Shown here: positions 7,321 through 22,467 of the stretch, in pieces
Position numbering within the stretch: position 1 is the stretch's first letter
Layout of the letters: each line of letters begins with the position of its first letter
Sequence record: OM386653.1
Length of the DNA: 64,000 nt
Source of the DNA: Escherichia phage vB_EcoM_ESCO8
Reading direction: 5' to 3' (one strand)
Made by a program: the position numbers and the translations under genes
Notes under the pieces: generated by a model
The model's database searches: none
Seen by the model: only the letters and a program-made list of their open reading frames with translations
What the model was told of the DNA's origin: nothing

Positions 7321-8481
7321 ATGTTTACAGTATTCGGCAATCAAATCTTCCTGCGTCAGAAGTCTGGTACAGATATTGAAGAAATTCCAGCAGGAACTTT
7401 TGGTGTAGGTGTTACTCAAAGTGGCGAGTTCTTCCTGTATCCTAAAAACGATATGGAAGTCCCTTCAGTAACATACGGTGATACTGATGATAAATCAGAA
7501 CGTATTATCAAGACGTTCCTTAGCCGCAAAGGTAAAAACACAGGTGTTCTCCTTGAGGGTACGAAGGGTAGCGGTAAAACTTTGCAAGCTAAAATGCTGT
7601 CTTCTGCTCTTCGTGAAATGGGTATTCCTACTATTTCTATCGGTAGTGCTTTTAATGGTGAAGGCTTTATCAATTTTATGTCTAAAATCACACAACCTGT
7701 GATGATTATGATCGATGAATTTGATAAACTGTATGCTGAAAAAGATGCACAGGATGGTTTGCTTACCCTGCTGGATGGTGTTGGTGGCTATGACAAGCTG
7801 TTTGTATTGACTAAAAATGATGGTTATGTATCAGAATTTTTGCGTAATCGCCCTAGCCGTATTTTCTACAGCTTTAACTATAAGAAACTACCTAAAGCTA
7901 CTATGGATGATTATCTGGCTAAAAATCTGGAGAACAAAGCCTTTTTACCAGATTTTGAAACGCTTTATAATCTGTCCGTGGACTTGAACTTTGATATTGT
8001 TCAGTCATTAGTAGAAGAACTTAACCGTTACCCTAATGACAAATTCTCTGATGCACTTGCATTAATGGGTATCAGTATTACTGAACACCGCTATGCTGCA
8101 AAAGAAGTTAAACTTCTGAAAGTTAACGGTGTAGATCGTACAGGAGATGTTTCGGCAGATACCGATATTGACGGTATGACAGCACAGGGTTTGTTTAGCG
8201 GTAATCGTTATGTTGTAGCTGTAGACCATAAGCTAGGAGAAGAGCATCTTCCTGAAATGGAAGGAGTCGTTACCGTAGAAGATAAAGACGAAGAAGGTGA
8301 CTACTACTGGGGTGTAGACCGTATCTTGCTGACGTATGATGAAAAACACATCCGTACAATGGGCGGTGACGGTTATCACTTTATGTTCACCGATGATAAA
8401 GGTAACAACATTGAAGTTGTTATTAAAAACAAAGAACGTAAAAACTACACAGAGTATGTGTTTGGTGGTCGTTCTTACTAA
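7321..8481 (+). CDS. P-loop/AAA-type ATPase
   Basis: Walker A GTKGSGKTLQAK and Walker B-like VMIMIDEFDKL; function not assignable. Confidence 0.6.
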   Translation: MFTVFGNQIFLRQKSGTDIEEIPAGTFGVGVTQSGEFFLYPKNDMEVPSVTYGDTDDKSERIIKTFLSRKGKNTGVLLEGTKGSGKTLQAKMLSSALREMGIPTISIGSAFNGEGFINFMSKITQPVMIMIDEFDKLYAEKDAQDGLLTLLDGVGGYDKLFVLTKNDGYVSEFLRNRPSRIFYSFNYKKLPKATMDDYLAKNLENKAFLPDFETLYNLSVDLNFDIVQSLVEELNRYPNDKFSDALALMGISITEHRYAAKEVKLLKVNGVDRTGDVSADTDIDGMTAQGLFSGNRYVVAVDHKLGEEHLPEMEGVVTVEDKDEEGDYYWGVDRILLTYDEKHIRTMGGDGYHFMFTDDKGNNIEVVIKNKERKNYTEYVFGGRSY

Positions 8482-8489
8482 GTGATAAA

Positions 8490-8514
8490 AGGAGGCGAAA
8501 GCCTCCTTTATTTG
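8490..8514 (+). terminator. intrinsic terminator (aggaggc-GAAA-gcctcct) plus T-tract
   Basis: 7-bp GC stem with GAAA tetraloop followed by ttatttg. Confidence 0.65.
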
Positions 8515-8515
8515 T

Positions 8516-8719
8516 ATGGAGGGTATTATGGATCATTATTTTGTTTTTAAAGATAAAGTTGATACCGCAGGTGGTCACGTTGCTAAAAATGATCGTGACA
8601 TTAAAGAAGTATTAGGAGATCTGATTAACATTTTAGAACAAAAAGAGTTGCTTTTAGATAAGGATATTGCTAGACTTCTTGGTGTGGGGATAAGTGACAT
8701 ACAAAGATTACCATTCTAA
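8516..8719 (+). CDS. hypothetical small protein (true start may be ATG 8528)
   Basis: 67-aa ORF immediately after the terminator; GGAGGG precedes the second ATG. Confidence 0.35.
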   Translation: MEGIMDHYFVFKDKVDTAGGHVAKNDRDIKEVLGDLINILEQKELLLDKDIARLLGVGISDIQRLPF

Positions 8720-8730
8720 AGGGGAAGAAA

Positions 8731-8886
8731 ATGCTTACAGATGATGAATATAAAGCTATCCAAGAAAAACTAACGGAACTTGAAATTCTTGCTGTCAATA
8801 TTAAAGATCAATCACATGCTGGAAAGTTACTACATCAAGAGATCAATAAAATTAAGCAGATGATATTCTTTTGGACGGAGGATTAA
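8731..8886 (+). CDS. hypothetical small protein (51 aa, absent from ORF track)
   Basis: ATG behind AAGGGGAAG; translated by hand MLTDDEYKAIQEKLTELEIL...FFWTED; fills the gap before the HAD gene. Confidence 0.3.
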   Translation: MLTDDEYKAIQEKLTELEILAVNIKDQSHAGKLLHQEINKIKQMIFFWTED

Positions 8887-8888
8887 AA

Positions 8889-9545
8889 ATGACTGTTAAG
8901 CATATTTCTTTTGATGTATGGAATACTCTTATTACTGCTAATCCTTTGTATGCAGAAGAACGCAACAAGGTTATTGCCGAGTATGCCTCTTGTTCTGAGG
9001 TAGAAGCAGCTACCGTATATAAAGAGGTAAAAACTCTCCTGGATTTAAAAGCAGAAAAAGGCATTTGTGGAACATCTAGAAATGCTTGGGAAACACTTTC
9101 TGCTCGTTTGAACATTGATCTTGATAAAGTAGATGGGTTAAAAAGAGACTGTTTAGCAATGTTTATAAAACATCCTCCAACATTAAACCCTGAACTTTGC
9201 AAGAAGTTGGAAGAGCTAAGTTCAACCTATTCTTTGAGTATTAAAAGCAATACTAATTTTGTACCTGGTAGTTTTTTAGCTGTATATTCTGGCTTGACAA
9301 AATTACCATTCGACTTTATGCATTTTTCTGACGAGTTTTGCTTGTGTAAACCAGATCCTAGGTTTTTTAAACTCTCTTTTGATGAAATGGTAACGTTTGA
9401 TCTCGCACCAGAGGAGATCTTACACGTTGGAGATAGTTTGATCTATGATGGAAAAGCTGTTGACATAGGGATGAAGTTCTGTCATATTATTAATCCAGAA
9501 GACTTGTTGGCTAAACTTAAAAAAGAGGAACTTATTAATGCGTAA
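8889..9545 (+). CDS. HAD-superfamily hydrolase (phosphatase-like)
   Basis: Motif I ISFDVWNTLI (DxWxTL variant) and motif IV VGDSLIYDGKAVD; start set at ATG 8889 behind GGAGGA. Confidence 0.6.
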   Translation: MTVKHISFDVWNTLITANPLYAEERNKVIAEYASCSEVEAATVYKEVKTLLDLKAEKGICGTSRNAWETLSARLNIDLDKVDGLKRDCLAMFIKHPPTLNPELCKKLEELSSTYSLSIKSNTNFVPGSFLAVYSGLTKLPFDFMHFSDEFCLCKPDPRFFKLSFDEMVTFDLAPEEILHVGDSLIYDGKAVDIGMKFCHIINPEDLLAKLKKEELINA

Positions 9546-10395
9546 TCAAATTCAACATTTTGCTAATACTTTTACTAACCTGAAGGAAGCAAAATTTAAC
9601 ATTGCAGATTATTCCAAGCTAAAGTTTGGTAGTAACCAGGCAGCAAAAAGAATGGGGCGCATTCTGGCTGAAAGTTTCTTTTCCAAGTATGAAGAACGAC
9701 TGGTAAATGAAAGTTTTGTTGTTATTCCATCTCCATATAACTATGTGAAAAATGCAGCTACAGTGTTATCTGAACATTTTGTAGATCACCTCAACTACCT
9801 AATCTCTATCAAAGGAGGTAAAGCAGTGGAGTGGGATATCGTTCATCGTAAAGTGAGCTATATCAATGATTATGGATTTCTTAGCAAAGAAGATCGTAAG
9901 GCTTTGATCGATGGTGACACTTTCTCTATCAATCGTGATTTCTGGGGTAATAAAACTCTGATTTTCATTGATGATGTTAATATTACAGGAACGCACGAAG
10001 AAAAACTTATTGAAATTTTAGACAAAGAAGGTGTTGAAAACGATACGTTTTTCCTGTACTTTGCAAAGTATGAAGGTACAGAAGCCAATACCGAAGCTGC
10101 ACTTAACTTCAACTATATCAATAACCTGGCAGCTTTTATTAAAATGATTAAACAAGAAACTGATGCTAAATGTTTGGTTCGTCCTATTAAGTATCTAATG
10201 AGTCAAAGCGAAGTTGATTTTAAAATTGCACTTTCACAGCTTCCTTTGTATTATGTAGAACAACTGTTCTTTGGTTGCCTTGCAGAAGGCTACAATAACA
10301 TTGAAAAATATAAAGAGAACTTTGATTTCCTACGTCAATTTTTTGAAAGCAACATTATCAACAAATCTAATGTTAAAGGGGATTATTATGTCTAA
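9538..10395 (+). CDS. phosphoribosyltransferase (PRTase)-like protein
   Basis: PRPP-binding-type motif TLIFIDDVNITGTHEE; start overlaps the HAD stop, suggesting translational coupling. Confidence 0.6.
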   Translation: MRNQIQHFANTFTNLKEAKFNIADYSKLKFGSNQAAKRMGRILAESFFSKYEERLVNESFVVIPSPYNYVKNAATVLSEHFVDHLNYLISIKGGKAVEWDIVHRKVSYINDYGFLSKEDRKALIDGDTFSINRDFWGNKTLIFIDDVNITGTHEEKLIEILDKEGVENDTFFLYFAKYEGTEANTEAALNFNYINNLAAFIKMIKQETDAKCLVRPIKYLMSQSEVDFKIALSQLPLYYVEQLFFGCLAEGYNNIEKYKENFDFLRQFFESNIINKSNVKGDYYV

Positions 10396-11104
10396 TAAAG
10401 TAATGACTTTCGGAGATCCTATCACCAATATTACAGAAAAAGATTTTGGGCGTGTAGCAACAGATAAAGATGGTGTCTTAAGAATTCGTGTACAAGGTAT
10501 TACAGCACAGGATGAATATGCTGTGTATGTTTCAGGTCTTAACTATATTGATGATCGCATTACACAAAACTTTGCACTGATCGGTGGTGTAGAGAAAATG
10601 TATTGGGAAGATGAAATTGTAACAAGTTATCCGGCAGGTATCATTGAGGTATACGGTGATCTTTTAGCAGCAGCCGAGAGAGGCGATATAGACGCTATAG
10701 CACACTGCTGTAACTGTTTTTGCACTATGGGTAGTGGTATTGCACCAAAAATTAAAAGCAAGTGGCCTGGTGCGTTTAAAGCAGATTGTGCCACTAAACA
10801 TGGTGATTATAAAAAATTAGGTACGTTTACCAAATATATAGAAAACAATTTGACAATTTATAATTTATATGGACAATATGGTTATAGTCGTCGTGAGGAA
10901 GGTAAGCGTGACCTGAATTATGAAGCTATCTACAATGCGTTAGATAGTATGGGAGACGATGTTGTATCTTCAGGCGGTAAAATTGTAGGTTTACCAATGC
11001 TTGGTTGTGGTTTGGCTGGAGGTTCTTGGAGTATTGTAAAACTTATGATCGAAGAAACTCTAGTAAACAAAGGTTTAAATGTAATTGTTTACAAACTGAA
11101 ATAA
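10388..11104 (+). CDS. macro-domain-like protein (ADP-ribose-derivative binding/processing), tentative
   Basis: DAIAHCCNCFCTMGSGIAPKI resembles the macro-domain block DAIVNAAN...GGGV.GAI; C-terminal GKIVGLPMLGCGLAGGSW resembles the second macro block; start at ATG 10388 behind AAAGGGG. Confidence 0.4.
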   Translation: MSNKVMTFGDPITNITEKDFGRVATDKDGVLRIRVQGITAQDEYAVYVSGLNYIDDRITQNFALIGGVEKMYWEDEIVTSYPAGIIEVYGDLLAAAERGDIDAIAHCCNCFCTMGSGIAPKIKSKWPGAFKADCATKHGDYKKLGTFTKYIENNLTIYNLYGQYGYSRREEGKRDLNYEAIYNALDSMGDDVVSSGGKIVGLPMLGCGLAGGSWSIVKLMIEETLVNKGLNVIVYKLK

Positions 11105-11113
11105 GGAGAAAGT

Positions 11114-11320
11114 ATGGCAGGTGTTTTAGCAGTATTAGGTTGTTTTATTGTTGTGTTTTTGATTGTGTTAATCCCTAGTTGGCTACTGCTTTTAGCATAC
11201 AACTATATGATTGACATTATCGGCTTAGACTGGCATCATGTTCCTGTAACGTTTTGGAGTGTAGTCTGTGTGACGTTCATTCTTGCGGTACTTCGTGGTA
11301 TCTTTCAATCTAACAAATAA
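11114..11320 (+). CDS. small membrane protein (two predicted TM helices)
   Basis: 68 aa, strongly hydrophobic; AAGGAGA RBS. Confidence 0.45.
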   Translation: MAGVLAVLGCFIVVFLIVLIPSWLLLLAYNYMIDIIGLDWHHVPVTFWSVVCVTFILAVLRGIFQSNK

Positions 11321-11334
11321 GAGAGGATTTTTAT

Positions 11335-11583
11335 ATGCGTAAAGTAAATGTTGAAGTGCTTGAAAAATTTAGAAACACTCGTGATTGTACTATCGGCAAG
11401 GTTTACGAGGCTATTCTCCTTGAAGATGGAGATCAAGTTCCTGCCCCGTATCACGCCTTTAATGGTCAAATCAGCAAAGTGGAAGGTGGTCTTGCTATTT
11501 GCTTTATTGATGACGTAGGTGATGCTGTAGCTTTCCCTGTCATTAACAAAGAAGATAAACTTAAAATTACAGAACTGAACTAG
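11335..11583 (+). CDS. hypothetical protein
   Basis: 82-aa ORF behind AGAGAGGA; no motif recognised. Confidence 0.5.
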   Translation: MRKVNVEVLEKFRNTRDCTIGKVYEAILLEDGDQVPAPYHAFNGQISKVEGGLAICFIDDVGDAVAFPVINKEDKLKITELN

Positions 11584-11623: not shown

Positions 11624-11642
11624 GCGGAGGATTGTCCTCCGC
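11624..11642 (+). other. 5'-proximal stem-loop (gcggagga / tcctccgc) in the TerC leader
   Basis: Perfect 8-bp inverted repeat with 3-nt loop just downstream of the predicted start site; no T-tract after it. Confidence 0.4.
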
Positions 11643-11660: not shown

Positions 11661-12638
11661 ATGCAACTGGGTTTCCCAATTATTGATGTGGTTGTTTTAG
11701 TGGGTATTTTAGTCTTGTCGATTTGTATTGACTTCTTTGGACACAGAGAAAACAAAGAAATTTCATTTAAATCTGCAATTGGCTGGTCAATTTTCTGGAT
11801 TGGGGTATCATTAGCCTACTATGGTTTTGTATACTTCCAACACGGTGCTGATTTTGCGAGCTTGTTCTTGAGTGGGTATGTGTTGGAGAAATCTCTTTCT
11901 GTAGATAACTTAGTAGTATTTGTAGCAGTATTCGCAAGTTTTGGTATTAAAAGCACACACTTGCAGCACAAGATTCTACTTTGGGGTATTGCAGGTGCGA
12001 TTGTCTTCCGAGGTGTGTTTGTAGCAGTAGGTACTTACTTGTTGAGTTTGGGCTGGTATGTTAATATCTTCTTCGGTGCTGTCATCCTTTTCTGTGCGGC
12101 TAAAATGGTATTCGCTGGAGATAATGATGCAGAAGTTGATTACTCTAAACACTGGGCTACTCGCATTGTTCGTAAGCTGTTCCCTGTATCTGATCAGATG
12201 GATGGTGAGAAGTTCTTCACAATCAAAAATGGTGTTCGTGTAGCAACTCCGGCTCTGGTTTGTGTGTTTGTAATGGAAATGGTTGACGTAATCTTTGCAG
12301 TAGACTCTGTTCCAGCAGTAATTGCAGTGACACAAGAACCTCTGCTGGTGTTCTCTTCGATGCTCTGTGCAATCTTAGGTTTACGTGCTCTGTTCTTTGT
12401 TCTTAGTGTTGCACTGAAGTATTTGGTTCATCTGGAGAAAGCAGTTATCGTAGTCCTGGTGTTTGTGGGTGTAAAACTGATGTATCACCCGTTTGCAGAA
12501 ACTCTGCACGCAAAAGTGAGTTTCCTGCCAGCACACATTGACCCGACGATCAGTATGTATATTGTGTTAGGTACTCTTGGGCTGGGTGTTCTTGCAAGTT
12601 TAATCTTCCCTGAAAAAGAAGACCAGGCTGTTGCTTAA
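11661..12638 (+). CDS. TerC-family integral membrane protein
   Basis: Polytopic membrane protein, 325 aa, with the TerC-family signature region GYVLEKSLSVDNLVVF; strong RBS AGAGGAGAAAAG. Confidence 0.75.
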   Translation: MQLGFPIIDVVVLVGILVLSICIDFFGHRENKEISFKSAIGWSIFWIGVSLAYYGFVYFQHGADFASLFLSGYVLEKSLSVDNLVVFVAVFASFGIKSTHLQHKILLWGIAGAIVFRGVFVAVGTYLLSLGWYVNIFFGAVILFCAAKMVFAGDNDAEVDYSKHWATRIVRKLFPVSDQMDGEKFFTIKNGVRVATPALVCVFVMEMVDVIFAVDSVPAVIAVTQEPLLVFSSMLCAILGLRALFFVLSVALKYLVHLEKAVIVVLVFVGVKLMYHPFAETLHAKVSFLPAHIDPTISMYIVLGTLGLGVLASLIFPEKEDQAVA

Positions 12639-12645
12639 TTCATTA

Positions 12646-12666
12646 AGCCCCTTCGGGGGCTTTATT
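12646..12666 (+). terminator. intrinsic terminator (agcccc-TTCG-ggggct) plus T-tract
   Basis: GC stem with TTCG loop followed by ttatt, directly after the TerC stop. Confidence 0.65.
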
Positions 12667-12677
12667 GAGGTGATCTG

Positions 12678-12884
12678 ATGGTGGTTTTACGTGTTCTTTG
12701 GATTCTGTTTGAAAATATTTGTTTTGCTCTAGGTTTGTTTTGTTTGATTTTTATCTTGACAACATATATTGATAACCATACAATTACTATCAACAGGAAC
12801 GGAGAACAGATGTATTGTTTCTCTAGGGATTTTAAAAATTGTGTTGAGATTTTAAATGAGAGGGTTACAAATGAAAAACATTAA
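12678..12884 (+). CDS. hypothetical small membrane protein (uncertain)
   Basis: 68-aa hydrophobic ORF behind GAGGTGA; overlaps the lipoprotein start. Confidence 0.25.
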   Translation: MVVLRVLWILFENICFALGLFCLIFILTTYIDNHTITINRNGEQMYCFSRDFKNCVEILNERVTNEKH

Positions 12885-13461
12885 ATCTTTTATTGTTGCA
12901 GTTGTTTTAGGTAGTGCATTGCTGGTAGGTTGTGATGATTCTGAAAATGTACAAAATCAACGTTACCAACAAACACCAAATCAGATGGTAGATGAACAAT
13001 ATGTAAATCAGCCTGCACCTCAAGTTGTTCAAGCAGCACCTGCACAACCTTCAACAGTTGTTGTGCAAGGAGGCGGCAGTGGTTCTTCTGGCGTAGGTGA
13101 GTTTGCTACAGGTATGCTTCTTGGTCATATGTTGAGTGGTAATAGTGGCGGTGGTGGTTATAGAGATGGCGGTAGCAATACAACAATTATCAATAACAAC
13201 GCTGCTCCTACAACTAATAGTAAAGCATATACAACACAAAAGCATAGGTTTTATGATAAACAAGGGAATACATATACAACCACTAAACAAAACACAATTA
13301 AGCAGCAAAGTGTACAAACGTATTCACGCCCATCAACAACAAAAGTGAATAGTGATTACTCTGCTCGTAAGTCTTACTCAAGTCCTATTAGCTCTTATAG
13401 TAAGTCTTCGAAAAGTTATTCTTCGTCGAAACGTAGTTTTAGTAGCTCACGTCGTCGTTAA
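12871..13461 (+). CDS. lipoprotein with glycine-zipper-like segment and Ser-rich C-terminus
   Basis: Signal peptide MKNIKSFIVAVVLGSALLVGC with lipobox LVGC; Gly-rich stretch GGGSGSSGVGEFATGMLLGHMLSGNSGGGG; start at ATG 12871. Confidence 0.6.
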   Translation: MKNIKSFIVAVVLGSALLVGCDDSENVQNQRYQQTPNQMVDEQYVNQPAPQVVQAAPAQPSTVVVQGGGSGSSGVGEFATGMLLGHMLSGNSGGGGYRDGGSNTTIINNNAAPTTNSKAYTTQKHRFYDKQGNTYTTTKQNTIKQQSVQTYSRPSTTKVNSDYSARKSYSSPISSYSKSSKSYSSSKRSFSSSRRR

Positions 13462-13496
13462 TAATTTAATACAGATTAAATAAGAAGGAGAAACAG

Positions 13497-14348
13497 ATGA
13501 AACTAGAAGTTGGTAAAGTGTATCGCCTGGAAGGTTGGATCTTTAATCAAGAAATTCTTGAGAAGAATAAAGATGGTTTTGAGTTTGTTGGTACTACCAA
13601 GGAAAGTATGCACAATGACGAATACTGTAAATTCGTTGGTAAAAATACAGGTCAAGAACAATTTTGCTTTAAGAGCGCAATCGGTGATTATGCTTCTGTA
13701 ATGCCAACACCAGAAAAGACTTCGAAGCAATATACTGTCTTTGGTGTAAAACTTGAAGAACTTGTAGAACACCCACGTTTTGAAGAGTTCAAGGTTGCTG
13801 CAATGCGCAAGCATTCTGAAATTAAAATACATAATTTGTTTGATTTAGAAGATCGGTTTGATATCTTTATGTATGATCGCAGGGAAAAGCATTTTGATGC
13901 AACGACTTCAAAATTTGCTGCAACAGAGGATATTAAAATCCTTGATGTTGATACCTTTCTTGAGAGTGTATCGTTTGTATTCATTCCTAAATACAAAAAA
14001 CGTAGTGATCATAAACGTGTGAAAGGAACTCCTCGTAAAAAACGTACTGTAAACAAAGCAACTTTGCACTTCACTTCTGGTGATAAATATACTCTCAAAG
14101 GGTTTGAAAGTGTTTTGTATGATGCTGGAACGGGTAATATCAAGTTTATCATTAAGGCAACCTACAAAGGTACGGTATTGCACGAAGAGGCTGTTACACT
14201 ACCTGTATTCGATATCTCTCGTGTTGAGGTACGGGGTGTTAAAGAGTCCTTCGATCTGGATTTCTTAACTGCTAATACCACGGGTTATGTTAATCTGGAA
14301 GCAGATGGAGCATTTATTACTACAAATTATTTAGATATGTTTGTTTAA
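13497..14348 (+). CDS. hypothetical protein
   Basis: 283-aa ORF behind AAGAAGGAGA; no motif recognised. Confidence 0.5.
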   Translation: MKLEVGKVYRLEGWIFNQEILEKNKDGFEFVGTTKESMHNDEYCKFVGKNTGQEQFCFKSAIGDYASVMPTPEKTSKQYTVFGVKLEELVEHPRFEEFKVAAMRKHSEIKIHNLFDLEDRFDIFMYDRREKHFDATTSKFAATEDIKILDVDTFLESVSFVFIPKYKKRSDHKRVKGTPRKKRTVNKATLHFTSGDKYTLKGFESVLYDAGTGNIKFIIKATYKGTVLHEEAVTLPVFDISRVEVRGVKESFDLDFLTANTTGYVNLEADGAFITTNYLDMFV

Positions 14349-14365
14349 TACTTAACTTGTGTTAT

Positions 14366-14391
14366 GATGGTGGTATAGAAGTATCACCATC
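14366..14391 (+). other. stem-loop (gatggtg ... caccatc) between ORF 13497-14348 and the TelA-like gene
   Basis: 7-bp inverted repeat with 12-nt loop; no T-tract. Confidence 0.3.
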
Positions 14392-14416
14392 TACTAAAGA
14401 ATATGGAGGAAATTGA

Positions 14417-15520
14417 ATGTCCAGTCCTTTTATCAGTGCCGTAAAAAGCAAACCGTCTGAAATGAGTGTATTCACGGCAACAACAGAAAAAAGTAAGTCT
14501 TTGTTTGCTCCAACTGCTATGGATGCAAGTCCTGTATATGCCCCTGCTGTTGCACGACCTGTACAAATGCTGCCTCCAATGTCTCGTGAAGAGATTGAAC
14601 AGGTTGGTGCTGATGCAGGACTTACTCTTCGTAACCTTAATGCTGAAGTGCTTAAACACCAGCGTTCATCTCAGGGAGATGAAATGAGTGAACGTTTAAC
14701 TGCGCTTATTAAGCAAGCAAAGCAACTTGATCCTAACTCTATTAAACAATCTAAAGGTTTAGGTAAACTAGTTAAGAAAGTTTTAGGTATGAAAGAAGAT
14801 TTGTTTGGAGAATTTGACACCATCAATAACCGTATTGAAGGTTTGGTAAAGACACTCCAAACAGACTTGAAAAAAGAAGAAGATTCTTTACGATATCTGC
14901 AACGTTTAGAAGAGGCTATTGCAAAATATGCCCTTAGTTTAAACAGGGATATAGAGCTTCTAACAGCTACTTATGAAAAAGAAGAAATTCGCCTTAATAC
15001 ACTGCCTGAAAATGAGGTAGAAGAGCGTCAACGTACTCGTGATACTATGGATCTGCTTGAAATTCGTATTGCAGACCTGAAAGCCTTACGCTTACTATGT
15101 GTTCAGATGGGGCCACGTGTACAAAGTATGCAGAAAGTATCTGCAAGTTTGATGCGATCAGCCCGTAATATTGTGAATAATGTTATCCCTGCTTACTCTG
15201 CAAACTTTTCTATGCATATTGAAAGTCTACGCCAGAAGAAAGCAGCCGATACACAGAACAATGTACTAAATGAATTTAATGCTGCTATTGCAATGGGTAG
15301 TGATTTGGCTGCACAAAACCAAATTGAAGCTACACAACTTGCTAATCGTCAAGTATTGGATATTGAAACATTACGTCGTGATCAAGAAAACTTGGTTAAA
15401 ATGTTGGAAGAAACTAACCGAATCAACACTGAAGCCCGTGCTGCTCGTATTGATTACATTCAAGAAGTGCAATCTCTTGAAGATGGTATGATTCAAACTG
15501 TTAAACGTGGTCTACTTTAA
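14417..15520 (+). CDS. TelA-like (toxic anion resistance family) protein, tentative
   Basis: 367 aa, largely alpha-helical/coiled-coil, size and neighbourhood with TerC, TerD and vWA genes fit TelA; no diagnostic motif confirmed by eye. Confidence 0.4.
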   Translation: MSSPFISAVKSKPSEMSVFTATTEKSKSLFAPTAMDASPVYAPAVARPVQMLPPMSREEIEQVGADAGLTLRNLNAEVLKHQRSSQGDEMSERLTALIKQAKQLDPNSIKQSKGLGKLVKKVLGMKEDLFGEFDTINNRIEGLVKTLQTDLKKEEDSLRYLQRLEEAIAKYALSLNRDIELLTATYEKEEIRLNTLPENEVEERQRTRDTMDLLEIRIADLKALRLLCVQMGPRVQSMQKVSASLMRSARNIVNNVIPAYSANFSMHIESLRQKKAADTQNNVLNEFNAAIAMGSDLAAQNQIEATQLANRQVLDIETLRRDQENLVKMLEETNRINTEARAARIDYIQEVQSLEDGMIQTVKRGLL

Positions 15521-15533
15521 GGAGAAATATATT

Positions 15534-15740
15534 ATGAATATTAAAATTTACAAACTGTCTGGTTCTATGATTGCTGTTCAGTATGATAATGAAGATCGTT
15601 ATGTTCTCCTCCAGGATGCTTGGTTAGATGATCCTAATGTATTCACTGTCCTGCGAGAACTACGTTCTGTCTATACCTATTCTTCTAAAGATGGTTTTGA
15701 CAATTCAACGATGGAATTGGTAAAAGAGGAGAATGTGTAA
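15534..15740 (+). CDS. hypothetical small protein
   Basis: ATG 15534 behind AAGGAGA. Confidence 0.4.
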   Translation: MNIKIYKLSGSMIAVQYDNEDRYVLLQDAWLDDPNVFTVLRELRSVYTYSSKDGFDNSTMELVKEENV

Positions 15741-15940
15741 TGAGTAAAGATATTCACTTAACTCGTGAAGAATTGCAAACCATTATGGAAGATGCTTTCA
15801 TTGATGGTTGGAAACAAGGTCAAGAATCAGATTGGTATGATGCCGAAGATTTTTTGTATTATCATATGACTGCACCTGTAGACGAGCAAACACACTCTGA
15901 AACAACTTTGGCTTTAATTGATCTTAAGGCTGGTGTATAA
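15740..15940 (+). CDS. hypothetical small acidic protein
   Basis: 66 aa; carries motif LTREELQTIMEDAFIDGWKQG shared with the next ORF. Confidence 0.4.
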   Translation: MSKDIHLTREELQTIMEDAFIDGWKQGQESDWYDAEDFLYYHMTAPVDEQTHSETTLALIDLKAGV

Positions 15941-16503
15941 TGGGGTGTTTTAGTTTCTTGTGCAAAGAGTCTGGTAATGCTGCTCTTTCTACCTCTTTTG
16001 ATGGCTCTCCTTGCTACCTATTTCTTTTGAAAGGTGGTAAGGTTGTCGAAGAGATGTATGGGAATTATGATAGCTATGGTAGTGTTTTCTCTAACGAAGA
16101 AGATAAACATGGCAATCGTAAAAGATTTAAGTGGTCTATGCCTTGGGAAGAAGTTTGTAATTTGATGTTCTCTTCCGATCTTGGAGATGGGATTGCTCTG
16201 GTATTAGAAGAGCACTTTACAGGTGAGATCCCAACAGAAAGATCTGAAGAAGATCCTAACCAGGGTTGGGGTGATGGAGAAGAAGATCCAGATTGCTTCT
16301 TCAACACTGAAAATAATAAATTTAAACGTGTTGACAATCCTTACCACAAAGTGCATAATACTTGCATTGAGACAGAAGAAGACTCAAAGCTAGAAATTGA
16401 AGATGATTTAGTTGTAACTATCTCTTTAAACGAGTTGCAAAAAATCACTAGAGAGGCTTTCTATTTAGGTTGGAAAGTAGGTAAAGGAGGAGATAGTGCT
16501 TAA
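15940..16503 (+). CDS. hypothetical acidic protein
   Basis: 187 aa; C-terminal LNELQKITREAFYLGWKVG echoes the motif of the upstream ORF. Confidence 0.45.
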   Translation: MGCFSFLCKESGNAALSTSFDGSPCYLFLLKGGKVVEEMYGNYDSYGSVFSNEEDKHGNRKRFKWSMPWEEVCNLMFSSDLGDGIALVLEEHFTGEIPTERSEEDPNQGWGDGEEDPDCFFNTENNKFKRVDNPYHKVHNTCIETEEDSKLEIEDDLVVTISLNELQKITREAFYLGWKVGKGGDSA

Positions 16504-16765
16504 ATTTAATATCAAAGACGACAAATCAGATGAACCTAAATGTTTTGGAGAACTTGACGTAGGTGATACATTTGTATATTATGTTGCCTATCAAGATTCT
16601 GGTTTAGATACGTTCAGAAACTTAGTGTTTATTAAAGTTAATACAAACCAAGCAATGTGTCTGAACGGTTCGCAAAGAGGTCAACTTAGCTGTATTTCGT
16701 ATGATACAGAAATGGTAGAAGTGGATTTAGAAGTTACTAACATTACACTCAGAAAGGAGAAATAA
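16496..16765 (+). CDS. hypothetical protein
   Basis: GTG start behind AAAGGAGGA; 89 aa. Confidence 0.4.
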   Translation: MLKFNIKDDKSDEPKCFGELDVGDTFVYYVAYQDSGLDTFRNLVFIKVNTNQAMCLNGSQRGQLSCISYDTEMVEVDLEVTNITLRKEK

Positions 16766-16766
16766 T

Positions 16767-17561
16767 ATGTCCAATAAAATCAGTCTTAAAAAACGTCAAG
16801 AAACTCTTACCGTATCTCTGCGTAAGAAAAAGATTAACGATGTTGTTCTTCGTGTCGGTAGCGCCTTAGATATTTCGGGTAGTATGTGTGAGCTGTATCG
16901 TGATGGCACTGTTAGTGATTTTGTAGGTAAGCTACTGCCGTTTGGTATGAAGTTTGATGATAATGCACAGATTGACATGTGGGCTTTCAATAGTTCTTCT
17001 TTTGAACTGCCTCCTGCAACGGCTGATGTATATGATGATTATGTCGGCTCTTGTATGTCTAATGTTTGCATCAATGGTGGTACAGCTTATGCTCCAGTAA
17101 TGCAAGAGATCTATGATACATACTTCGGTAGTGTACCTATGAAAAATATTACACGCGAAGTCGTTGAGTATGAAGAAGTTCCGGCTAAGGGTTTCCTTGC
17201 TAAACTAACTGGTAAAAAAGAACGTGTAGAAGTTACACGTACTGTTGTAGAACAGGTTGTAGATACTGATGCACAAGTTGATCGTACTCCTGCAATGATT
17301 TTCTTCCAAACTGACGGGGAGAACATGGATACTTCAGCAGTACGTAGTTTGCTGAACAAACACCGCAACACTCCTGTTTACTGGTTTATGGTTGGTGTAG
17401 GTAATGCAAACTTTAAATTCCTGAAAGACTTGGCAAAAGAATACGATAACGTTGATTTTATCGGTATTGCAGATTTGTCCTTGTCTGACGAAGAACTTTA
17501 CGATAAACTGCTATCCGAAGAGTTTGGCGAGTGGGTTAAAAAATTTGGAGCAAAAGCGTAA
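16767..17561 (+). CDS. von Willebrand factor A (vWA) domain protein, TerY-like
   Basis: MIDAS-type motif ALDISGSM (DxSxS) near the N-terminus; 264 aa. Confidence 0.6.
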   Translation: MSNKISLKKRQETLTVSLRKKKINDVVLRVGSALDISGSMCELYRDGTVSDFVGKLLPFGMKFDDNAQIDMWAFNSSSFELPPATADVYDDYVGSCMSNVCINGGTAYAPVMQEIYDTYFGSVPMKNITREVVEYEEVPAKGFLAKLTGKKERVEVTRTVVEQVVDTDAQVDRTPAMIFFQTDGENMDTSAVRSLLNKHRNTPVYWFMVGVGNANFKFLKDLAKEYDNVDFIGIADLSLSDEELYDKLLSEEFGEWVKKFGAKA

Positions 17562-17568
17562 AAAACGC

Positions 17569-17596
17569 TTGACTTTGTAGAAAAGATTAGTAAAAT
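17569..17596 (+). promoter_or_regulatory. sigma70-like promoter (TTGACT-16-TAAAAT) driving the TerD gene
   Basis: -35 at 17569-17574, -10 at 17591-17596. Confidence 0.5.
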
Positions 17597-17633
17597 AGAC
17601 AACGTAAATTAACAACAAAGGAGATAATAAATT

Positions 17634-18230
17634 ATGACTCAGAAAATTTCCCTGAAAAAAGGTTCTAGCGAAAAAGTTTCTCTGAAAAAGATTGCACCAG
17701 CACTGAAACGCATTCGTCTGGAATTCTCTTGGAAATCTAACGAAAAACTGGATCTGGATGTTAGTGCTCTGATTTGCCGACACAATGCATCTGGTCTGCC
17801 GGAACTGTTGTCTCCTCGCCACCTGGTATGCTACGCACAGAAATTTGATCCTGAACGTTCTACTTTTGCAGGTGAAGATGTTCGTGACGGTGTAGGACAA
17901 ATGGAGCAGATTGATGTTACACTGGATAATATCTCTGCTGAAGCACAGGAAATTGCATTCGTAATCACTATTGATGACGAAACGGGTAAGAAACGCCTTG
18001 GTCACGCTACCGAAGGTTTCCTTAAAATCTTCGATGATGAACGTAACGTTGAACTGCTGGATTTTGACTTCTTGGCTCCAGAACTTGCAGGTAATACCAT
18101 TTGCCACGTTGCCTCCCTGGTGCGGGAAGATAGCGAATGGAAACTGAAAGCATATGGTGTAGGTAAAGCTGGACTTGACATTTATGATGTAGTTAAAGCG
18201 TTTGGCGCTGGCGACGATTGGTTCGAGTAA
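17634..18230 (+). CDS. TerD-domain protein
   Basis: N-terminal ISLKKGSSEKVSLKK, LDLDVSALI, GEDVRDGVG and C-terminal WKLKAYGVGKAGL blocks characteristic of TerD; strong RBS AAGGAGA; codon choice strongly biased to CTG/CGT/GGT/GAA/AAA. Confidence 0.8.
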   Translation: MTQKISLKKGSSEKVSLKKIAPALKRIRLEFSWKSNEKLDLDVSALICRHNASGLPELLSPRHLVCYAQKFDPERSTFAGEDVRDGVGQMEQIDVTLDNISAEAQEIAFVITIDDETGKKRLGHATEGFLKIFDDERNVELLDFDFLAPELAGNTICHVASLVREDSEWKLKAYGVGKAGLDIYDVVKAFGAGDDWFE

Positions 18231-18239
18231 TAAATCATA

Positions 18240-18262
18240 GCGCCCTTCGGGGCGCATATTTT
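18240..18262 (+). terminator. intrinsic terminator (gcgccc-TTCG-gggcgc) plus T-rich tail
   Basis: Perfect 6-bp GC stem with TTCG tetraloop followed by atattttaaat. Confidence 0.7.
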
Positions 18263-18282: not shown

Positions 18283-18885
18283 ATGGGTATTACTTTAGAA
18301 GGTCAAAAACTTATTCGCAGCGGTAATTTTCTTGTGGATATTGACAACAATGAAGATTATGCTTTAGAAGTTAGTGATGTACTGTTTAATGCTTTGCAGT
18401 CTGGTTTCAATTTTGAAGTTTATGAAGTAATCCGTGGAACTAAACTCAGAGAAACCCTTGGATCAACTAGTGATGTTTATTCTGCGATCTGGCAATATTT
18501 CGGGTTAATGGATGGTAAGACATACCTTACTGATAGTTATTCTGAAGATGTTGTTTATCTTGATATGGAAGAGTTTCGTCGTCTGTTCAAAAGTGAAGAA
18601 AATGAAGAAGAGGGTGAACTTTTTGAAGGAATTACTCTCGAAGGTAATGTTGAAATTGTGTATAAAGCAGGAAAAACATTCCACTTGCGTGAAAACGGTA
18701 AAGCAAAAGTTGATTTTGTAAACAAGACAGTAACAACTGAACATAATTATCTTAAAGATGGTCAACCAGCTTTTGAACGTGTAACAATTAAATTTAAAGT
18801 ATTGTCTGCACTAGTTACGGATCAAGAACGTATTGATTTTGTAGAAGATGGTGTAGTAACTCATACAAAGGTTTACAACATCTAA
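18283..18885 (+). CDS. hypothetical protein
   Basis: 200-aa ORF behind GAGGAGAAAA; internal echo GITLEG appears twice. Confidence 0.5.
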   Translation: MGITLEGQKLIRSGNFLVDIDNNEDYALEVSDVLFNALQSGFNFEVYEVIRGTKLRETLGSTSDVYSAIWQYFGLMDGKTYLTDSYSEDVVYLDMEEFRRLFKSEENEEEGELFEGITLEGNVEIVYKAGKTFHLRENGKAKVDFVNKTVTTEHNYLKDGQPAFERVTIKFKVLSALVTDQERIDFVEDGVVTHTKVYNI

Positions 18886-20808: not shown

Positions 20809-21495
20809 TTGGAAAATACAAAAATTGGTGTTGGTGTTATTACTGTAGGTAAGCGTCCTCTTAAAGATTATCTTGTGACTGATCCTAATGCTACTTTTGT
20901 TGTACAGTATGATCGGGAGCGAAAAGGTGTTGCATATGCTCGTAATGAACTGATGAAAAAGTTTTATGATGAAGGGTATGATTACTGGTTTATTTTTGAT
21001 GATGATTGCTATCCTGTTGTTCAAGGTTGGGAAACATATTTTGTAAAACAGGCGAAGGAAAATGGTTGGGATTTCTTTGGTATGCCTGAATACTTTAAAG
21101 ATAAAGTAAAAGGTATTGAAGGGGAAGTGGTTATTTGGGAACTAGGTATGTGCCAGTTTGGTATGTATTCCCGTGCAGTTATTGAGAAAGCTGGCTATTT
21201 CCGCTCATACACCCACGGTTATGGATATGAAGATGCAGAGTGGATTCATCGCGTTCCACTGGCAGGTTTGAACCGAGGTATTCAAGGCGTGCCATGTCCT
21301 ATTCGAATTATGGCGTTTATCCATCCTGATGATGTATTTGGAGACAATCCTTTACCTTTTGCGAATCTGTCAAAAGAAGAGAAAGAACAGGGGATTGGTG
21401 TAAACTGGGAACAATATAAACAATCCTTGGAGGATCTTCGCAATGGTAAAACTTTTATCTCTTATGAGGAGGCTCAAAAATATGGTAAATCCTAA
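20809..21495 (+). CDS. glycosyltransferase, family 2-like (GT-A fold)
   Basis: Pattern GVAYARNELMKKFYDEGYDYWFIFDDDCYP matches the GT2 block (ARN...G.dY..f.DdD); TTG start behind AAGGAG. Confidence 0.5.
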   Translation: MENTKIGVGVITVGKRPLKDYLVTDPNATFVVQYDRERKGVAYARNELMKKFYDEGYDYWFIFDDDCYPVVQGWETYFVKQAKENGWDFFGMPEYFKDKVKGIEGEVVIWELGMCQFGMYSRAVIEKAGYFRSYTHGYGYEDAEWIHRVPLAGLNRGIQGVPCPIRIMAFIHPDDVFGDNPLPFANLSKEEKEQGIGVNWEQYKQSLEDLRNGKTFISYEEAQKYGKS

Positions 21496-22456
21496 TACTC
21501 CTGTACTTAAGTGTGATAATAAGTTAGGCAGTGGTTGTGATTACCATCGTATTGTAATGCCATTTGCTGGAAATACGTTTAAACCTAAGAAAGACGTTTT
21601 AGTTTTTAATAGAGTGTATTCTCGTGGAGCAGACGAGGTTAAACGCCTGAAGGCACAAGGTGTTAAGATTATTGTTGATTTAGATGACTTTTATTCACTT
21701 AATCCTGAACATTATATGGCTGGCGTATTTACTAATCATTCAAAGACTATTGTAGAGATGGTTAAGTTAGCAGATGTTGTTACTGTAACAACAGAATACC
21801 TAGCTTACAAAATTCGTCATTTAAATCGTAATGTTGTCGTAATTAGAAACGCACTACCTTACGACGAAGGTCAATTTACTTTGACAAAAGACCGTAATTC
21901 TGACACGCCTATTATCTGGGCTGGAGGAGCAAGCCACGAGCCTGATTTATCTCTTGTAGCTAATACATTTGATGATACACTATTGACAATTGCAGGGTAT
22001 GAAGTGTATCCTTCTGCACCTGTTGGAAATAACAGTCAGTATCTAACTACTGCGGAGTGGGTTAAAATAAAACGTAAAATTCCAAATGCACAGTATAAAC
22101 CAGCTATTAAAAATTTAGGTGAGTATATGTCTGTGTATGACGGTCACAGCATTGCAATTGCTCCCCTGGTAGATAATGACTTCAACAACTGTAAAAGCAA
22201 TTTGAAGATTTTGGAAGCAGGTGCAAAGGGTCTTCCTATTATCTGTTCTCCTGTGCTGCCGTACTTCAATCCGGTAGATGCAAAGGCTGTTATCTATGCA
22301 GACTCTAAAGCATCTTGGCATTATGAAGTTGTCAAGCTAATGAGGAACCCTAGATACACAGAAGATCGTGGTATGATGCTTGCAGAACACGTTCGTCTTA
22401 ATTATAATCTTGCAGATGCCAATGAACTGCGTCGTCAAGTTATTGAAAGTCTTTAA
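21482..22456 (+). CDS. glycosyltransferase (GT-B fold), paralogue 1
   Basis: C-terminal block NNCKSNLKILEAGAKGLPIICSP (GT1-type E..G.P motif); start at ATG 21482 behind GAGGAGG; clear paralogy with the next gene. Confidence 0.5.
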   Translation: MVNPNTPVLKCDNKLGSGCDYHRIVMPFAGNTFKPKKDVLVFNRVYSRGADEVKRLKAQGVKIIVDLDDFYSLNPEHYMAGVFTNHSKTIVEMVKLADVVTVTTEYLAYKIRHLNRNVVVIRNALPYDEGQFTLTKDRNSDTPIIWAGGASHEPDLSLVANTFDDTLLTIAGYEVYPSAPVGNNSQYLTTAEWVKIKRKIPNAQYKPAIKNLGEYMSVYDGHSIAIAPLVDNDFNNCKSNLKILEAGAKGLPIICSPVLPYFNPVDAKAVIYADSKASWHYEVVKLMRNPRYTEDRGMMLAEHVRLNYNLADANELRRQVIESL

Positions 22457-22467
22457 CAAGGAGTTAT

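What the first reader, a model, noticed from the sequence alone, without database searches (positions are those of the whole stretch)
8889..11104. Translationally coupled HAD-PRTase-macro triad: candidate pathway for a phosphoribosylated metabolite
The HAD stop overlaps the PRTase start (9538-9545), and the macro-like start at 10388 overlaps the PRTase 3' end, so the three are likely made in fixed ratio. A PRTase makes a ribose-5-phosphate adduct, a HAD phosphatase could remove the phosphate, and a macro domain typically binds or processes ADP-ribose derivatives. The chemistry suggests a nucleoside-like product or degradation of an ADP-ribose-derived signal. The macro assignment is tentative and the N-terminal 100 aa of that protein are unexplained.
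Basis: inference. Interest (0 to 1): 0.6.

Follow-up and report, generated by a model that had tools for sequence, protein, structure and literature searches.

The report
Phage Ter-system enzyme pair plus macrodomain
The three overlapping genes are real, but they are a known two-enzyme unit (HAD hydrolase plus ComF-like phosphoribosyltransferase) of a phage-borne tellurite-resistance-type (Ter) cluster, followed by a separate ADP-ribose-removing macrodomain that sits next to the pair only in this phage lineage.

Summary
Three + strand genes lie at 8889-9545 (HAD), 9538-10395 (Pfam PRTase_3, E 1e-41) and 10388-11104 (macro), each joined to the next by an 8-nt ATGNNTAA overlap. The window is Escherichia phage outra, a phi92-like Justusliebigvirus. 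Public records already annotate the three genes this way.

The triad reading is only partly supported. In 46 of 47 PRTase_3 loci from phages, Rhizobium plasmids and Bacteroidales, the HAD gene lies directly upstream. Its stop overlaps the PRTase start in 32 of 44 evaluable loci. TerC, TelA, vWA-TerF and TerD follow within 8 kb. So the pair is the two-gene "nucleoside-like metabolite" module of Ter systems (Anantharaman 2012; Iyer 2021).

The macro is a TARG1/DarG/SCO6735-class ADP-ribosylhydrolase with the SCO6735 H/N/Q signature. It is adjacent to the pair only in the phi92-like clade (within 10 kb in 1 of 36 other loci). Its homologues in jumbo phages sit by NAD-salvage genes instead.

Its N-terminal ~83 aa is an orphan beta-domain. 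In sister phages that domain heads a separate MazG-like protein, so the window gene is a deletion fusion.

The HAD has an invariant Trp where phosphatases have the Asp+2 general acid, so its phosphatase role is unproven. This is ordinary to modestly interesting.

The parts
8889..9545 (+). HAD-superfamily hydrolase (218 aa), subfamily IA-like. Motif I reads SFDVWNT: the nucleophile Asp9 is present and Asp+2 is replaced by Trp11. Motif II is S120-N121, motif III is K154-P155, and motif IV is G181-D182...D187.
   Evidence: Pfam PF00702 E 6.5e-6 and phrog_14393 'hydrolase' E 2.5e-119. Motif conservation was measured across 41 homologues that sit next to PRTase_3. The nearest solved structure, 2om6, has the same FDVWNTL motif. 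The gene lies directly upstream of PRTase_3 in 46 of 47 loci.
9538..10395 (+). ComF-like type I phosphoribosyltransferase (285 aa, Pfam PRTase_3). It has an invariant PRPP loop, D145-D146-V-x-I-T-G-T-H-E, and a C-terminal all-helical extension (aa ~185-277) with no solved relative.
10388..10636 (+). N-terminal ~83-aa beta-rich orphan domain of the third protein. It is homologous to the N-terminal domain of a 184-aa beta-domain + MazG-like protein encoded between PRTase_3 and the macro gene in sister phages.
   Evidence: BLASTP E 2e-7 against L003:7457-8008 and alignment A3. AF2 pLDDT is low, 29-62. Only 6 hits were found among 1.84 billion representatives, two of them spurious matches to repeat proteins.
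10637..11104 (+). Macrodomain of the ALC1-like (TARG1/DarG/SCO6735) class, SCO6735/BT1257 subgroup. H106, N109 and Q163 correspond to SCO6735 H24, N27 and Q85. The TARG1 catalytic residues K84 and D125 are replaced by Q163 and A210.
   Evidence: PF01661 E 1.1e-6. PDB phmmer finds SCO6735 5e3b at E 7e-16 and BT1257 at E 2.5e-15. Foldseek finds TARG1 at TM 0.90, plus DarG and Poa1p. The NCBIfam DarG model scores E 9.5e-13, below its cutoff. N109 and Q163 are invariant and H106 nearly invariant across 60 homologues.
11114..11583 (+). Two small ORFs (68-aa hydrophobic, 82 aa) between the macro gene and TerC. They are conserved in the phi92-like clade and have no assigned family.
11661..12638 (+). 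TerC/Alx-family integral membrane protein.
   Evidence: PF03741 E 1.2e-38. NCBIfam TIGR03718 TerC/Alx E 2.1e-96, above its cutoff.
14417..15520 (+). TelA (toxic anion resistance protein family).
   Evidence: PF05816 E 5.7e-34.
16767..17561 (+). vWA-TerF-like protein.
   Evidence: PF10138 E 7.2e-39.
17634..18230 (+). TerD-domain protein.
   Evidence: PF02342 E 5.1e-28.
8488..8509 (+). Terminator-like hairpin upstream of the unit, just after the AAA ATPase gene. The next hairpin is at 11624-11642, before TerC, and another follows TerD at 18240-18255. This is consistent with 8516-11583 being one transcription unit, but these are consensus matches only.
   Evidence: Site counts are not above the shuffled expectation.

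Best explanation
The locus is a composite of two functional units.

(1) HAD (8889-9545) and PRTase_3 (9538-10395) are the conserved, translationally coupled two-gene biosynthetic module of a phage-borne Ter system. The rest of that system lies downstream: TerC/Alx, TelA, vWA-TerF and TerD at 11.6-18.2 kb. By inference, the PRTase transfers ribose-5-phosphate from PRPP to an unidentified base-like acceptor. The HAD then processes that nucleotide, probably by dephosphorylation, although it lacks the usual Asp+2 general acid. The resulting nucleoside-like small molecule is thought to act on or through the TerD/TerC/TelA/vWA membrane-associated complex. In the phage this could serve superinfection exclusion, envelope or metal homeostasis during infection, or both.

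(2) The third gene (10388-11104) is an independent ADP-ribosylhydrolase of the SCO6735/TARG1/DarG class. It most likely removes ADP-ribose from DNA or protein as a counter-measure to host ADP-ribosyltransferases such as DarT2. It sits next to the module only in phi92-like phages. In the window-type phages it has become fused to an orphan beta-domain, through loss of the MazG-like half of a neighbouring gene.

Shown here: domain and fold identities, motif states, gene-order statistics, and the Ter context. Inferred: substrates, product, biological role, and the functional independence of the macro.
For: Pair as the unit. The HAD gene is directly upstream of PRTase_3 in 46 of 47 loci, spanning phi92-like and unrelated large phages, Rhizobium/Ensifer plasmids, Bacteroidales, Peribacteria and an actinobacterium. 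The HAD stop overlaps the PRTase start in 32 of 44 evaluable loci.

Ter context. TerC, TelA, vWA-TerF and TerD are in the window. Ter genes lie near the pair in 13 of 36 loci outside the clade.

Literature. The Ter biosynthetic module always contains a PRTase and a HAD and comes in two-gene and five-gene forms, with a predicted pyrimidine-derived ribonucleoside product (PMC11994780). Ter systems with PRTase and HAD have been noted in jumbo phages and 'related smaller tailed phages' (PMC7824862).

Active PRTase. The PRPP loop is invariant and there are 55 invariant columns in the alignment. The fold is ComF/HGPRT-like.

Macro class and signature. SCO6735 cleaves thymidine-linked ADP-ribose on DNA and ADP-ribose on protein, and its Q85, N27 and H24 were probed by mutagenesis; Q85A abolished activity and N27S nearly abolished it (PMC9411070). 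A phage macro, AdfM, counters DarTG2 (PMC13309987).

Macro independence. It is absent from 35 of 36 non-clade PRTase_3 loci. It lies 10.5 kb away in L037/L052. Its homologues sit in NAD-salvage neighbourhoods without PRTase_3 or Ter genes. The junction with the PRTase varies within the clade.
Against: No biochemical data exist for PRTase_3 or its HAD partner; no paper on PF15610 was found. The HAD has Trp at Asp+2 in 38 of 39 homologues, so simple phosphatase chemistry is not assured.

The macro stays in the same gene block as the Ter cluster throughout the phi92-like clade. It is also within about 3-10 kb of Ter genes in two further phage lineages, L034 and L052. In sister phages a MazG-like nucleotide pyrophosphatase lies between the PRTase and the macro. 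A lineage-specific functional link to nucleotide chemistry therefore cannot be excluded.

SCO6735 K34, mutated in the DNA-activity analysis of PMC9411070, is Ser116 here. No TerB was found near the module, although TerB is reported to accompany biosynthetic modules. Many PRTase_3 loci show no Ter genes within 10 kb, so the pair may also work independently of Ter.
Confidence: 0.6

Rival explanations
1. HAD, PRTase and macro form one three-step pathway made in fixed ratio. The PRTase makes a ribose-5-phosphate adduct, the HAD dephosphorylates it, and the macro binds or processes the ADP-ribose-like product, or degrades an ADP-ribose-derived immune signal.
For: The genes are consecutive with 8-nt overlaps. 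The order PRTase then macro is kept throughout the phi92-like clade. A MazG-like nucleotide pyrophosphatase is intercalated in sister phages. Macro relatives such as Poa1p act on small ADP-ribose-1''-phosphate.
Against: Macro linkage is confined to one clade, whose PRTases are at least 65% identical, so shared descent explains the synteny. Outside the clade a macro lies within 10 kb in 1 of 36 loci and is never adjacent. The PRTase/macro junction is not conserved, with gaps of 0-1 nt or an extra gene. Overlaps are common in this genome, at 15 of 42 junctions. Homologous macros occur without PRTase_3. The catalytic signature matches a macromolecular de-ADP-ribosylase.
Confidence: 0.15
2. HAD + PRTase_3 is a self-contained nucleotide-metabolism or antimetabolite module that does not depend on Ter proteins. 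It might make a modified nucleoside or nucleotide for the phage's own nucleotide pool, for DNA modification or as a toxin. Its proximity to Ter genes would then be incidental clustering of accessory genes.
For: The pair occurs alone within +/-10 kb on Rhizobium/Ensifer plasmids and in several phages. The window has glycosyltransferases, including a weak hit to TET-associated glycosyltransferase, a few kb downstream. NrdD and NrdG lie just upstream.
Against: Ter genes flank the pair in independent lineages: phages L034, L037, L039, L041, L042, L046, L049 and L051, plus Bacteroidales and an actinobacterium. This matches the published Ter association.
Confidence: 0.15
3. PRTase_3 is not a small-molecule enzyme. 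Like ComF, it is a PRTase-fold protein acting on or binding nucleic acid or protein, and the HAD acts as a partner subunit rather than a phosphatase.
Against: The PRPP-binding loop and many polar residues are invariant, as expected of an active PRPP-using enzyme. The HAD keeps its nucleophile Asp, the motif III Lys and the motif IV acidic residues.
Confidence: 0.07

Closest known systems
Ter-associated biosynthetic module, two-gene form (PRTase + HAD), of Ter stress-response/anti-phage systems (Anantharaman, Iyer & Aravind 2012, as summarised in PMC11994780 and PMC7824862)
   Same: It has a PF15610 PRTase with an adjacent HAD, embedded among TerC, TelA, vWA-TerF and TerD. A phage-borne example was already described, in the jumbo phage vB_AbaM_ME3 and 'related smaller tailed phages'.
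   Different: This one is in a 145-kb phi92-like coliphage. No TerB was detected nearby. A macrodomain gene is appended to the pair. The product and role of the module remain untested anywhere.
SCO6735 (Streptomyces coelicolor macrodomain, PDB 5e3b) and BT1257 (2fg1/2afc)
   Same: These are the best sequence matches among solved structures (E 7e-16 and 2.5e-15). The H-x-x-N...Q signature is shared, and the TARG1 Lys/Asp dyad is absent in both. SCO6735 hydrolyses thymidine-linked ADP-ribose on ssDNA and ADP-ribose on protein.
   Different: Identity is only about 30%. SCO6735 K34 is Ser116 here and V25 is Cys107. The phage protein carries an extra N-terminal beta-domain. Its activity is untested.
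AdfM, the chimallivirus DarG2-like macrodomain that counters DarTG2 (PMC13309987), and the DarG antitoxin macrodomain
   Same: It is a phage-encoded macrodomain of the same ALC1-like class, and the fold matches DarG 5m3e. It offers a plausible role as a reverser of host ADP-ribosylation.
   Different: AdfM and DarG use a catalytic Lys (K78 and K80); the window protein has Gln at that position. It has no DarT-binding C-terminal domain. No test against DarT has been done.
TARG1/OARD1 (human terminal ADP-ribose glycohydrolase, PDB 4j5r)
   Same: It is the best structural match (TM 0.90 over the target, 28% identity).
   Different: The catalytic K84 and D125 are replaced by Q163 and A210.
ComF and classical type I PRTases (HGPRT, UPRT, OPRT)
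   Same: The Rossmann-like PRTase core and the acidic PRPP loop followed by T-G-T are shared.
   Different: Identity is 12% or less to 17% at most. There is a unique ~90-aa helical C-terminal domain. The acceptor substrate is unknown.

Membership tests
Ter-associated two-gene biosynthetic module (PRTase + HAD) | A PRTase of the Ter-associated ComF-like family (Pfam PF15610) | tested here: met
   PF15610 E 1.1e-41, covering 251 of 264 profile positions.
Ter-associated two-gene biosynthetic module (PRTase + HAD) | A HAD-superfamily gene adjacent to the PRTase | tested here: met
   The HAD gene is directly upstream with an 8-nt overlap. The same arrangement holds in 46 of 47 loci.
Ter-associated two-gene biosynthetic module (PRTase + HAD) | Neighbourhood contains core Ter genes (TerD, TerC, TelA, vWA-TerF/TerY) | tested here: met
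   TerC, TelA, vWA-TerF and TerD all pass Pfam cutoffs within 8 kb downstream.
Ter-associated two-gene biosynthetic module (PRTase + HAD) | TerB present (reported to accompany biosynthetic modules) | tested here: inconclusive
   No TerB Pfam hit was found in the 20 neighbouring ORFs scanned over 7.3-23.4 kb. Two small ORFs (15740-15940 and 16496-16765) and the rest of the genome were not scanned.
Ter-associated two-gene biosynthetic module (PRTase + HAD) | Makes a nucleoside-like metabolite | not testable with these tools
   This is a prediction from the literature only. No experimental paper was found.
Type I phosphoribosyltransferase | PRTase fold and an acidic PRPP-binding loop (hydrophobic-D-D-x-x-T-G-x-T) | tested here: met
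HAD phosphatase | Motif I nucleophile Asp; motif II Ser/Thr; motif III Lys; motif IV acidic residues | tested here: met
   D9, S120, K154 and D182/D187 are conserved in at least 93% of 41 homologues.
HAD phosphatase | Asp at nucleophile+2 acting as general acid/base (DxD) | tested here: not met
   Motif I is D-V-W. The position is Trp in 38 of 39 homologues and Tyr in 1. The same motif occurs in the uncharacterised structure 2om6.
Macrodomain, ALC1-like class (TARG1/DarG/SCO6735) | Macro fold with best matches in this class | tested here: met
   Foldseek finds TARG1 at TM 0.90, plus BT1257 and DarG. phmmer finds SCO6735 and BT1257.
TARG1-type hydrolase | Catalytic Lys84/Asp125 dyad | tested here: not met
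   The aligned residues are Q163 and A210.
SCO6735-type hydrolase | His24, Asn27 and Gln85 equivalents (Q85A abolished and N27S nearly abolished activity in PMC9411070) | tested here: met
   H106, N109 and Q163. N109 and Q163 are invariant and H106 is nearly invariant in 60 homologues.
SCO6735-type hydrolase | DNA-positioning lysines K34/K89 | tested here: not met
   K34 aligns with S116 and K89 with S167, although R168 and R169 are adjacent.
DarG antitoxin / AdfM anti-DarT factor | Catalytic Lys (K80/K78); a DarT-binding domain (DarG); reversal of DarT2 modification | tested here: not met
   Gln occupies the Lys position. The NCBIfam DarG model scores 48 bits against a cutoff of 250, and only over the macro part. 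Activity cannot be tested here.

The most novel reading that the evidence does not exclude
In phi92-like phages the macro, and the MazG-like enzyme of sister phages, have been recruited into the Ter biosynthetic module. The PRTase/HAD product, or a precursor made from an ADP-ribose or NTP-derived substrate, would be trimmed, sensed or recycled by these appended enzymes. They share the same orphan N-terminal beta-domain, which would act as a docking module to the PRTase-HAD complex. That would amount to an expanded, phage-specific pathway for a new ribosylated signalling molecule.
Probability: 0.1. Interest if true: 0.65.

Novelty: new member of a known kind. Interest (0 to 1): 0.3.

Why it matters
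The chemistry of the Ter system's PRTase-HAD module has been an untested prediction since 2012. This coliphage carries it in its minimal two-gene form, in a genetically tractable E. coli K-12 phage from the BASEL-type collections. That makes it a convenient system for identifying the metabolite and asking why lytic phages carry Ter genes.

The conserved HAD/PRTase overlap and the invariant Asp+2-to-Trp change are concrete hints for that work: a likely complex, and a non-canonical HAD step.

Separately, the macro is a candidate SCO6735-type (Gln rather than Lys) phage de-ADP-ribosylase. If active against DarT2-type defence, it would extend the recently found AdfM class to coliphages.

None of this is very surprising to a specialist.

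Tried and rejected
- Riboswitch upstream of the phage TerC/Alx gene, such as yybP-ykoY: an Rfam gathering-threshold scan of the whole window found nothing.
- Second TerD paralogue at 18283-18885: no similarity to the TerD at 17634-18230 and no Pfam hit.
- Identity of the N-terminal domain of the macro protein: Pfam, NCBIfam and PDB give nothing significant. There are only weak, non-significant hits to the hemocyanin beta-sandwich (E 0.036). An exhaustive HMMER scan of 1.84 billion representatives gave 6 hits, the largest being spurious matches to repeat proteins. The AF2 confidence is too low for a fold search.
- Transcription-unit definition: counts of promoter-like and terminator-like sites are not above the shuffled expectation, so I use them only as weak hints.
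- Anantharaman et al. 2012 (PMC4104200) is not held. Its content is cited second-hand from PMC11994780 and PMC7824862.
- A literature search for experimental work on PF15610 or ComF-like Ter PRTases found nothing relevant.
- The idea that the overlaps prove a fixed-ratio triad is rejected. Overlaps occur at 15 of 42 junctions in this genome, and the PRTase/macro overlap is not conserved.
- One Pfam call failed on a bad coordinate.
Full report
**What is there.**
The window is 100% identical over the finding to Escherichia phage outra (MN850645). This is a phi92-like Justusliebigvirus of the Stephanstirmvirinae. Sixty-seven phage records carry the region at 95% nucleotide identity or more.

| Gene | Coordinates | Length |
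|---|---|---|
| HAD | 8889-9545 | 218 aa |
| PRTase | 9538-10395 | 285 aa |
| Third gene | 10388-11104 | 238 aa |

The two junctions are 8-nt overlaps, ATGCGTAA and ATGTCTAA. Each start also has its own Shine-Dalgarno sequence.

Pfam assigns Hydrolase/HAD (E 6.5e-6), PRTase_3 'PRTase ComF-like' (E 1.1e-41), and Macro over aa 106-217 (E 1.1e-6). All three are above the gathering scores. BASEL-collection GenBank records already call the genes 'putative HAD-like', 'putative phosphoribosyltransferase' and 'putative macrodomain protein'.

**Folds.**

The macro part of the third protein (aa 84-238) is modelled at pLDDT above 90. It superposes on TARG1 (TM 0.90), BT1257, DarG and Poa1p.

A Ter cluster lies downstream on the same strand:

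| Gene | Coordinates | Evidence |
|---|---|---|
| TerC/Alx | 11661-12638 | PF03741 E 1e-38; TIGR03718 above cutoff |
| TelA | 14417-15520 | E 6e-34 |
| vWA-TerF-like | 16767-17561 | E 7e-39 |
| TerD | 17634-18230 | E 5e-28 |

The literature describes Ter systems as including a biosynthetic module of two or five enzymes. That module always contains a PRTase and a HAD, and is predicted to make a nucleoside-like, probably pyrimidine-derived, metabolite (PMC11994780). Such systems have also been noted in jumbo and 'related smaller tailed' phages (PMC7824862). The HAD-PRTase pair here is that module in its two-gene form.

**What is the conserved unit?**
I collected 47 PRTase_3 loci. They come from phi92-like phages, unrelated 55-500-kb phage contigs, Rhizobium/Ensifer plasmids, Bacteroidales, a Peribacteria MAG and an actinobacterium.

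- Profile searches of their six-frame ORFs find the HAD directly upstream in 46 of 47 loci.
- The HAD stop overlaps the PRTase start in 32 of 44 evaluable loci. The overlaps are 4-32 nt and include the rhizobial and Bacteroidales loci.
- Ter genes lie within 10 kb in every clade member with enough flanking sequence, and in 13 of 36 loci outside the clade.
- The rhizobial plasmids and several phages have the pair alone.

Overlaps in themselves are common in this genome, at 15 of 42 junctions. It is the cross-taxon conservation of the HAD/PRTase overlap that supports translational coupling, and probably a complex.

**The macro is not part of that unit.**
A macro lies within 10 kb of PRTase_3 in 11 loci.

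- Ten of the 11 belong to the phi92-like clade, whose PRTases are at least 65% identical to the window's. The eleventh (L034) has it 7 kb away.
- In a 153-kb phage the macro homologue lies 10.5 kb from the pair and 3 kb upstream of TerC.
- Within the clade the junction varies. The window type has an 8-nt overlap, L002 and L048 have gaps of 0-1 nt, and L003, L004, L032 and L033 have an extra 184-aa gene.
- Macro homologues at 45-48% identity in jumbo phages sit beside NAMPT, Nudix and SIR2 genes, with no PRTase_3 or Ter genes nearby.

**What kind of macro?**
The best sequence matches among solved structures are SCO6735 (E 7e-16) and BT1257, followed by TARG1.

- The TARG1 catalytic residues K84 and D125 align with Q163 and A210.
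- SCO6735 H24, N27 and Q85 align with H106, N109 and Q163. N109 and Q163 are invariant and H106 is nearly invariant in 60 homologues.
- SCO6735 removes thymidine-linked ADP-ribose from ssDNA, which is the DarT product, and also removes ADP-ribose from proteins. Q85A abolishes that activity and N27S nearly abolishes it (PMC9411070).
- A phage macro, AdfM, was recently shown to defeat DarTG2 (PMC13309987). It has the DarG-type Lys rather than Gln.
- SCO6735 K34 is Ser116 here, so activity on DNA is not assured.

**The unexplained N-terminus.**
Residues 1 to about 83 are beta-rich and modelled with low confidence. They are homologous (E 2e-7) to the N-terminal domain of the 184-aa protein encoded between PRTase_3 and a standalone 152-aa macro in sister phages.

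The C-terminal half of that 184-aa protein carries an ExxE...ExxD motif. It gives sub-threshold MazG hits in 17 of 20 members, and one source names it an NTP pyrophosphatase. The window gene is therefore a deletion fusion of the beta-domain to the macro, with the MazG-like half lost.

The domain itself is an orphan. It has only 6 hits among 1.84 billion representatives, and the largest of those are spurious.

**A caveat on the HAD.**
Motif I reads SFDxWxT. The nucleophile Asp is conserved, but the Asp+2 general acid/base of HAD phosphatases is Trp in 38 of 39 homologues. Motifs II to IV are intact. The nearest solved structure (2om6) shares the motif but is uncharacterised. 'HAD removes the 5'-phosphate' is therefore plausible but unproven.

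**Verdict.**
The best reading (confidence 0.6) has two parts:

- a known Ter-type HAD + PRTase_3 metabolite module, tightly coupled and carried by a coliphage;
- an adjacent, independently evolving SCO6735-class de-ADP-ribosylase, probably used for counter-defence.

A lineage-specific recruitment of the macro, and of the MazG-like enzyme, into the module cannot be excluded; I put that at about 0.1-0.15.

Novelty: a new member of a known kind. Interest is modest at 0.3. It rests mainly on this being a tractable system for finally identifying the Ter metabolite.

Noticed in passing
window 11661-18230: A near-complete Ter cluster (TerC/Alx, TelA, vWA-TerF-like, TerD) sits in a strictly lytic phi92-like coliphage. 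It is interspersed with conserved small membrane and lipoprotein-like ORFs: 12678-12884, 12856-13461 (Ser/Gly-rich lipoprotein-like) and 13497-14348 (283 aa, no family). Most public records annotate these genes as hypothetical.
   Followed up: partly
L003:7457-8011 and homologues P0241-P0267 (sister phages; absent from the window): A 184-aa protein made of an orphan beta-domain plus a probable MazG-like NTP pyrophosphatase (ExxE...ExxD motif) is encoded between PRTase_3 and the macro gene. The window phage keeps only the beta-domain, fused to the macro.
   Followed up: yes
window 8889-9545 and 41 homologues; PDB 2om6: This is a HAD subfamily with invariant Trp at the Asp+2 position (motif FDVWNTL). 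An uncharacterised Pyrococcus structural-genomics protein shares the motif. The chemistry of this DxW subgroup appears unstudied.
   Followed up: partly
window 20809-23412: A run of glycosyltransferase-like genes. One (20809-21495) gives a sub-threshold hit to TET-associated glycosyltransferase (PF20691, E 3.9e-5). Relatives annotate the genes as 'disaccharide synthase'. They might concern DNA or surface glycan modification.
   Followed up: no
window 7321-8481: A 386-aa AAA-type ATPase (PF00004 E 1.2e-6) lies just upstream of the module. It is conserved only within the phi92-like clade and is followed by a terminator-like hairpin at 8488-8509.
   Followed up: partly
one search hit list: Four records labelled as Campylobacter phages (host C. 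jejuni) share at least 95% nucleotide identity with this E. coli phage region. This suggests mislabelled or contaminant records.
   Followed up: no
L001:3225-5999 (relative; corresponds to the extreme left end of the window): The UvrD/Rep-family helicase of the related phage JohannJBalmer is annotated as intein-containing.
   Followed up: no
L005:3997-16450 and L007/L008: Jumbo-phage neighbourhoods of the homologous macro gene combine NAMPT, Nudix, SIR2, a second macro, HAD_SAK_2, NT5C and a PRPP-synthetase-like gene. This looks like an NAD/ADP-ribose counter-defence island.
   Followed up: no
window ~32000: GC skew changes sign near 32 kb. All ORFs of 80 aa or more from 5 to 32 kb that look like genes are on the + strand, which is consistent with a switch in transcription direction there.
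   Followed up: no
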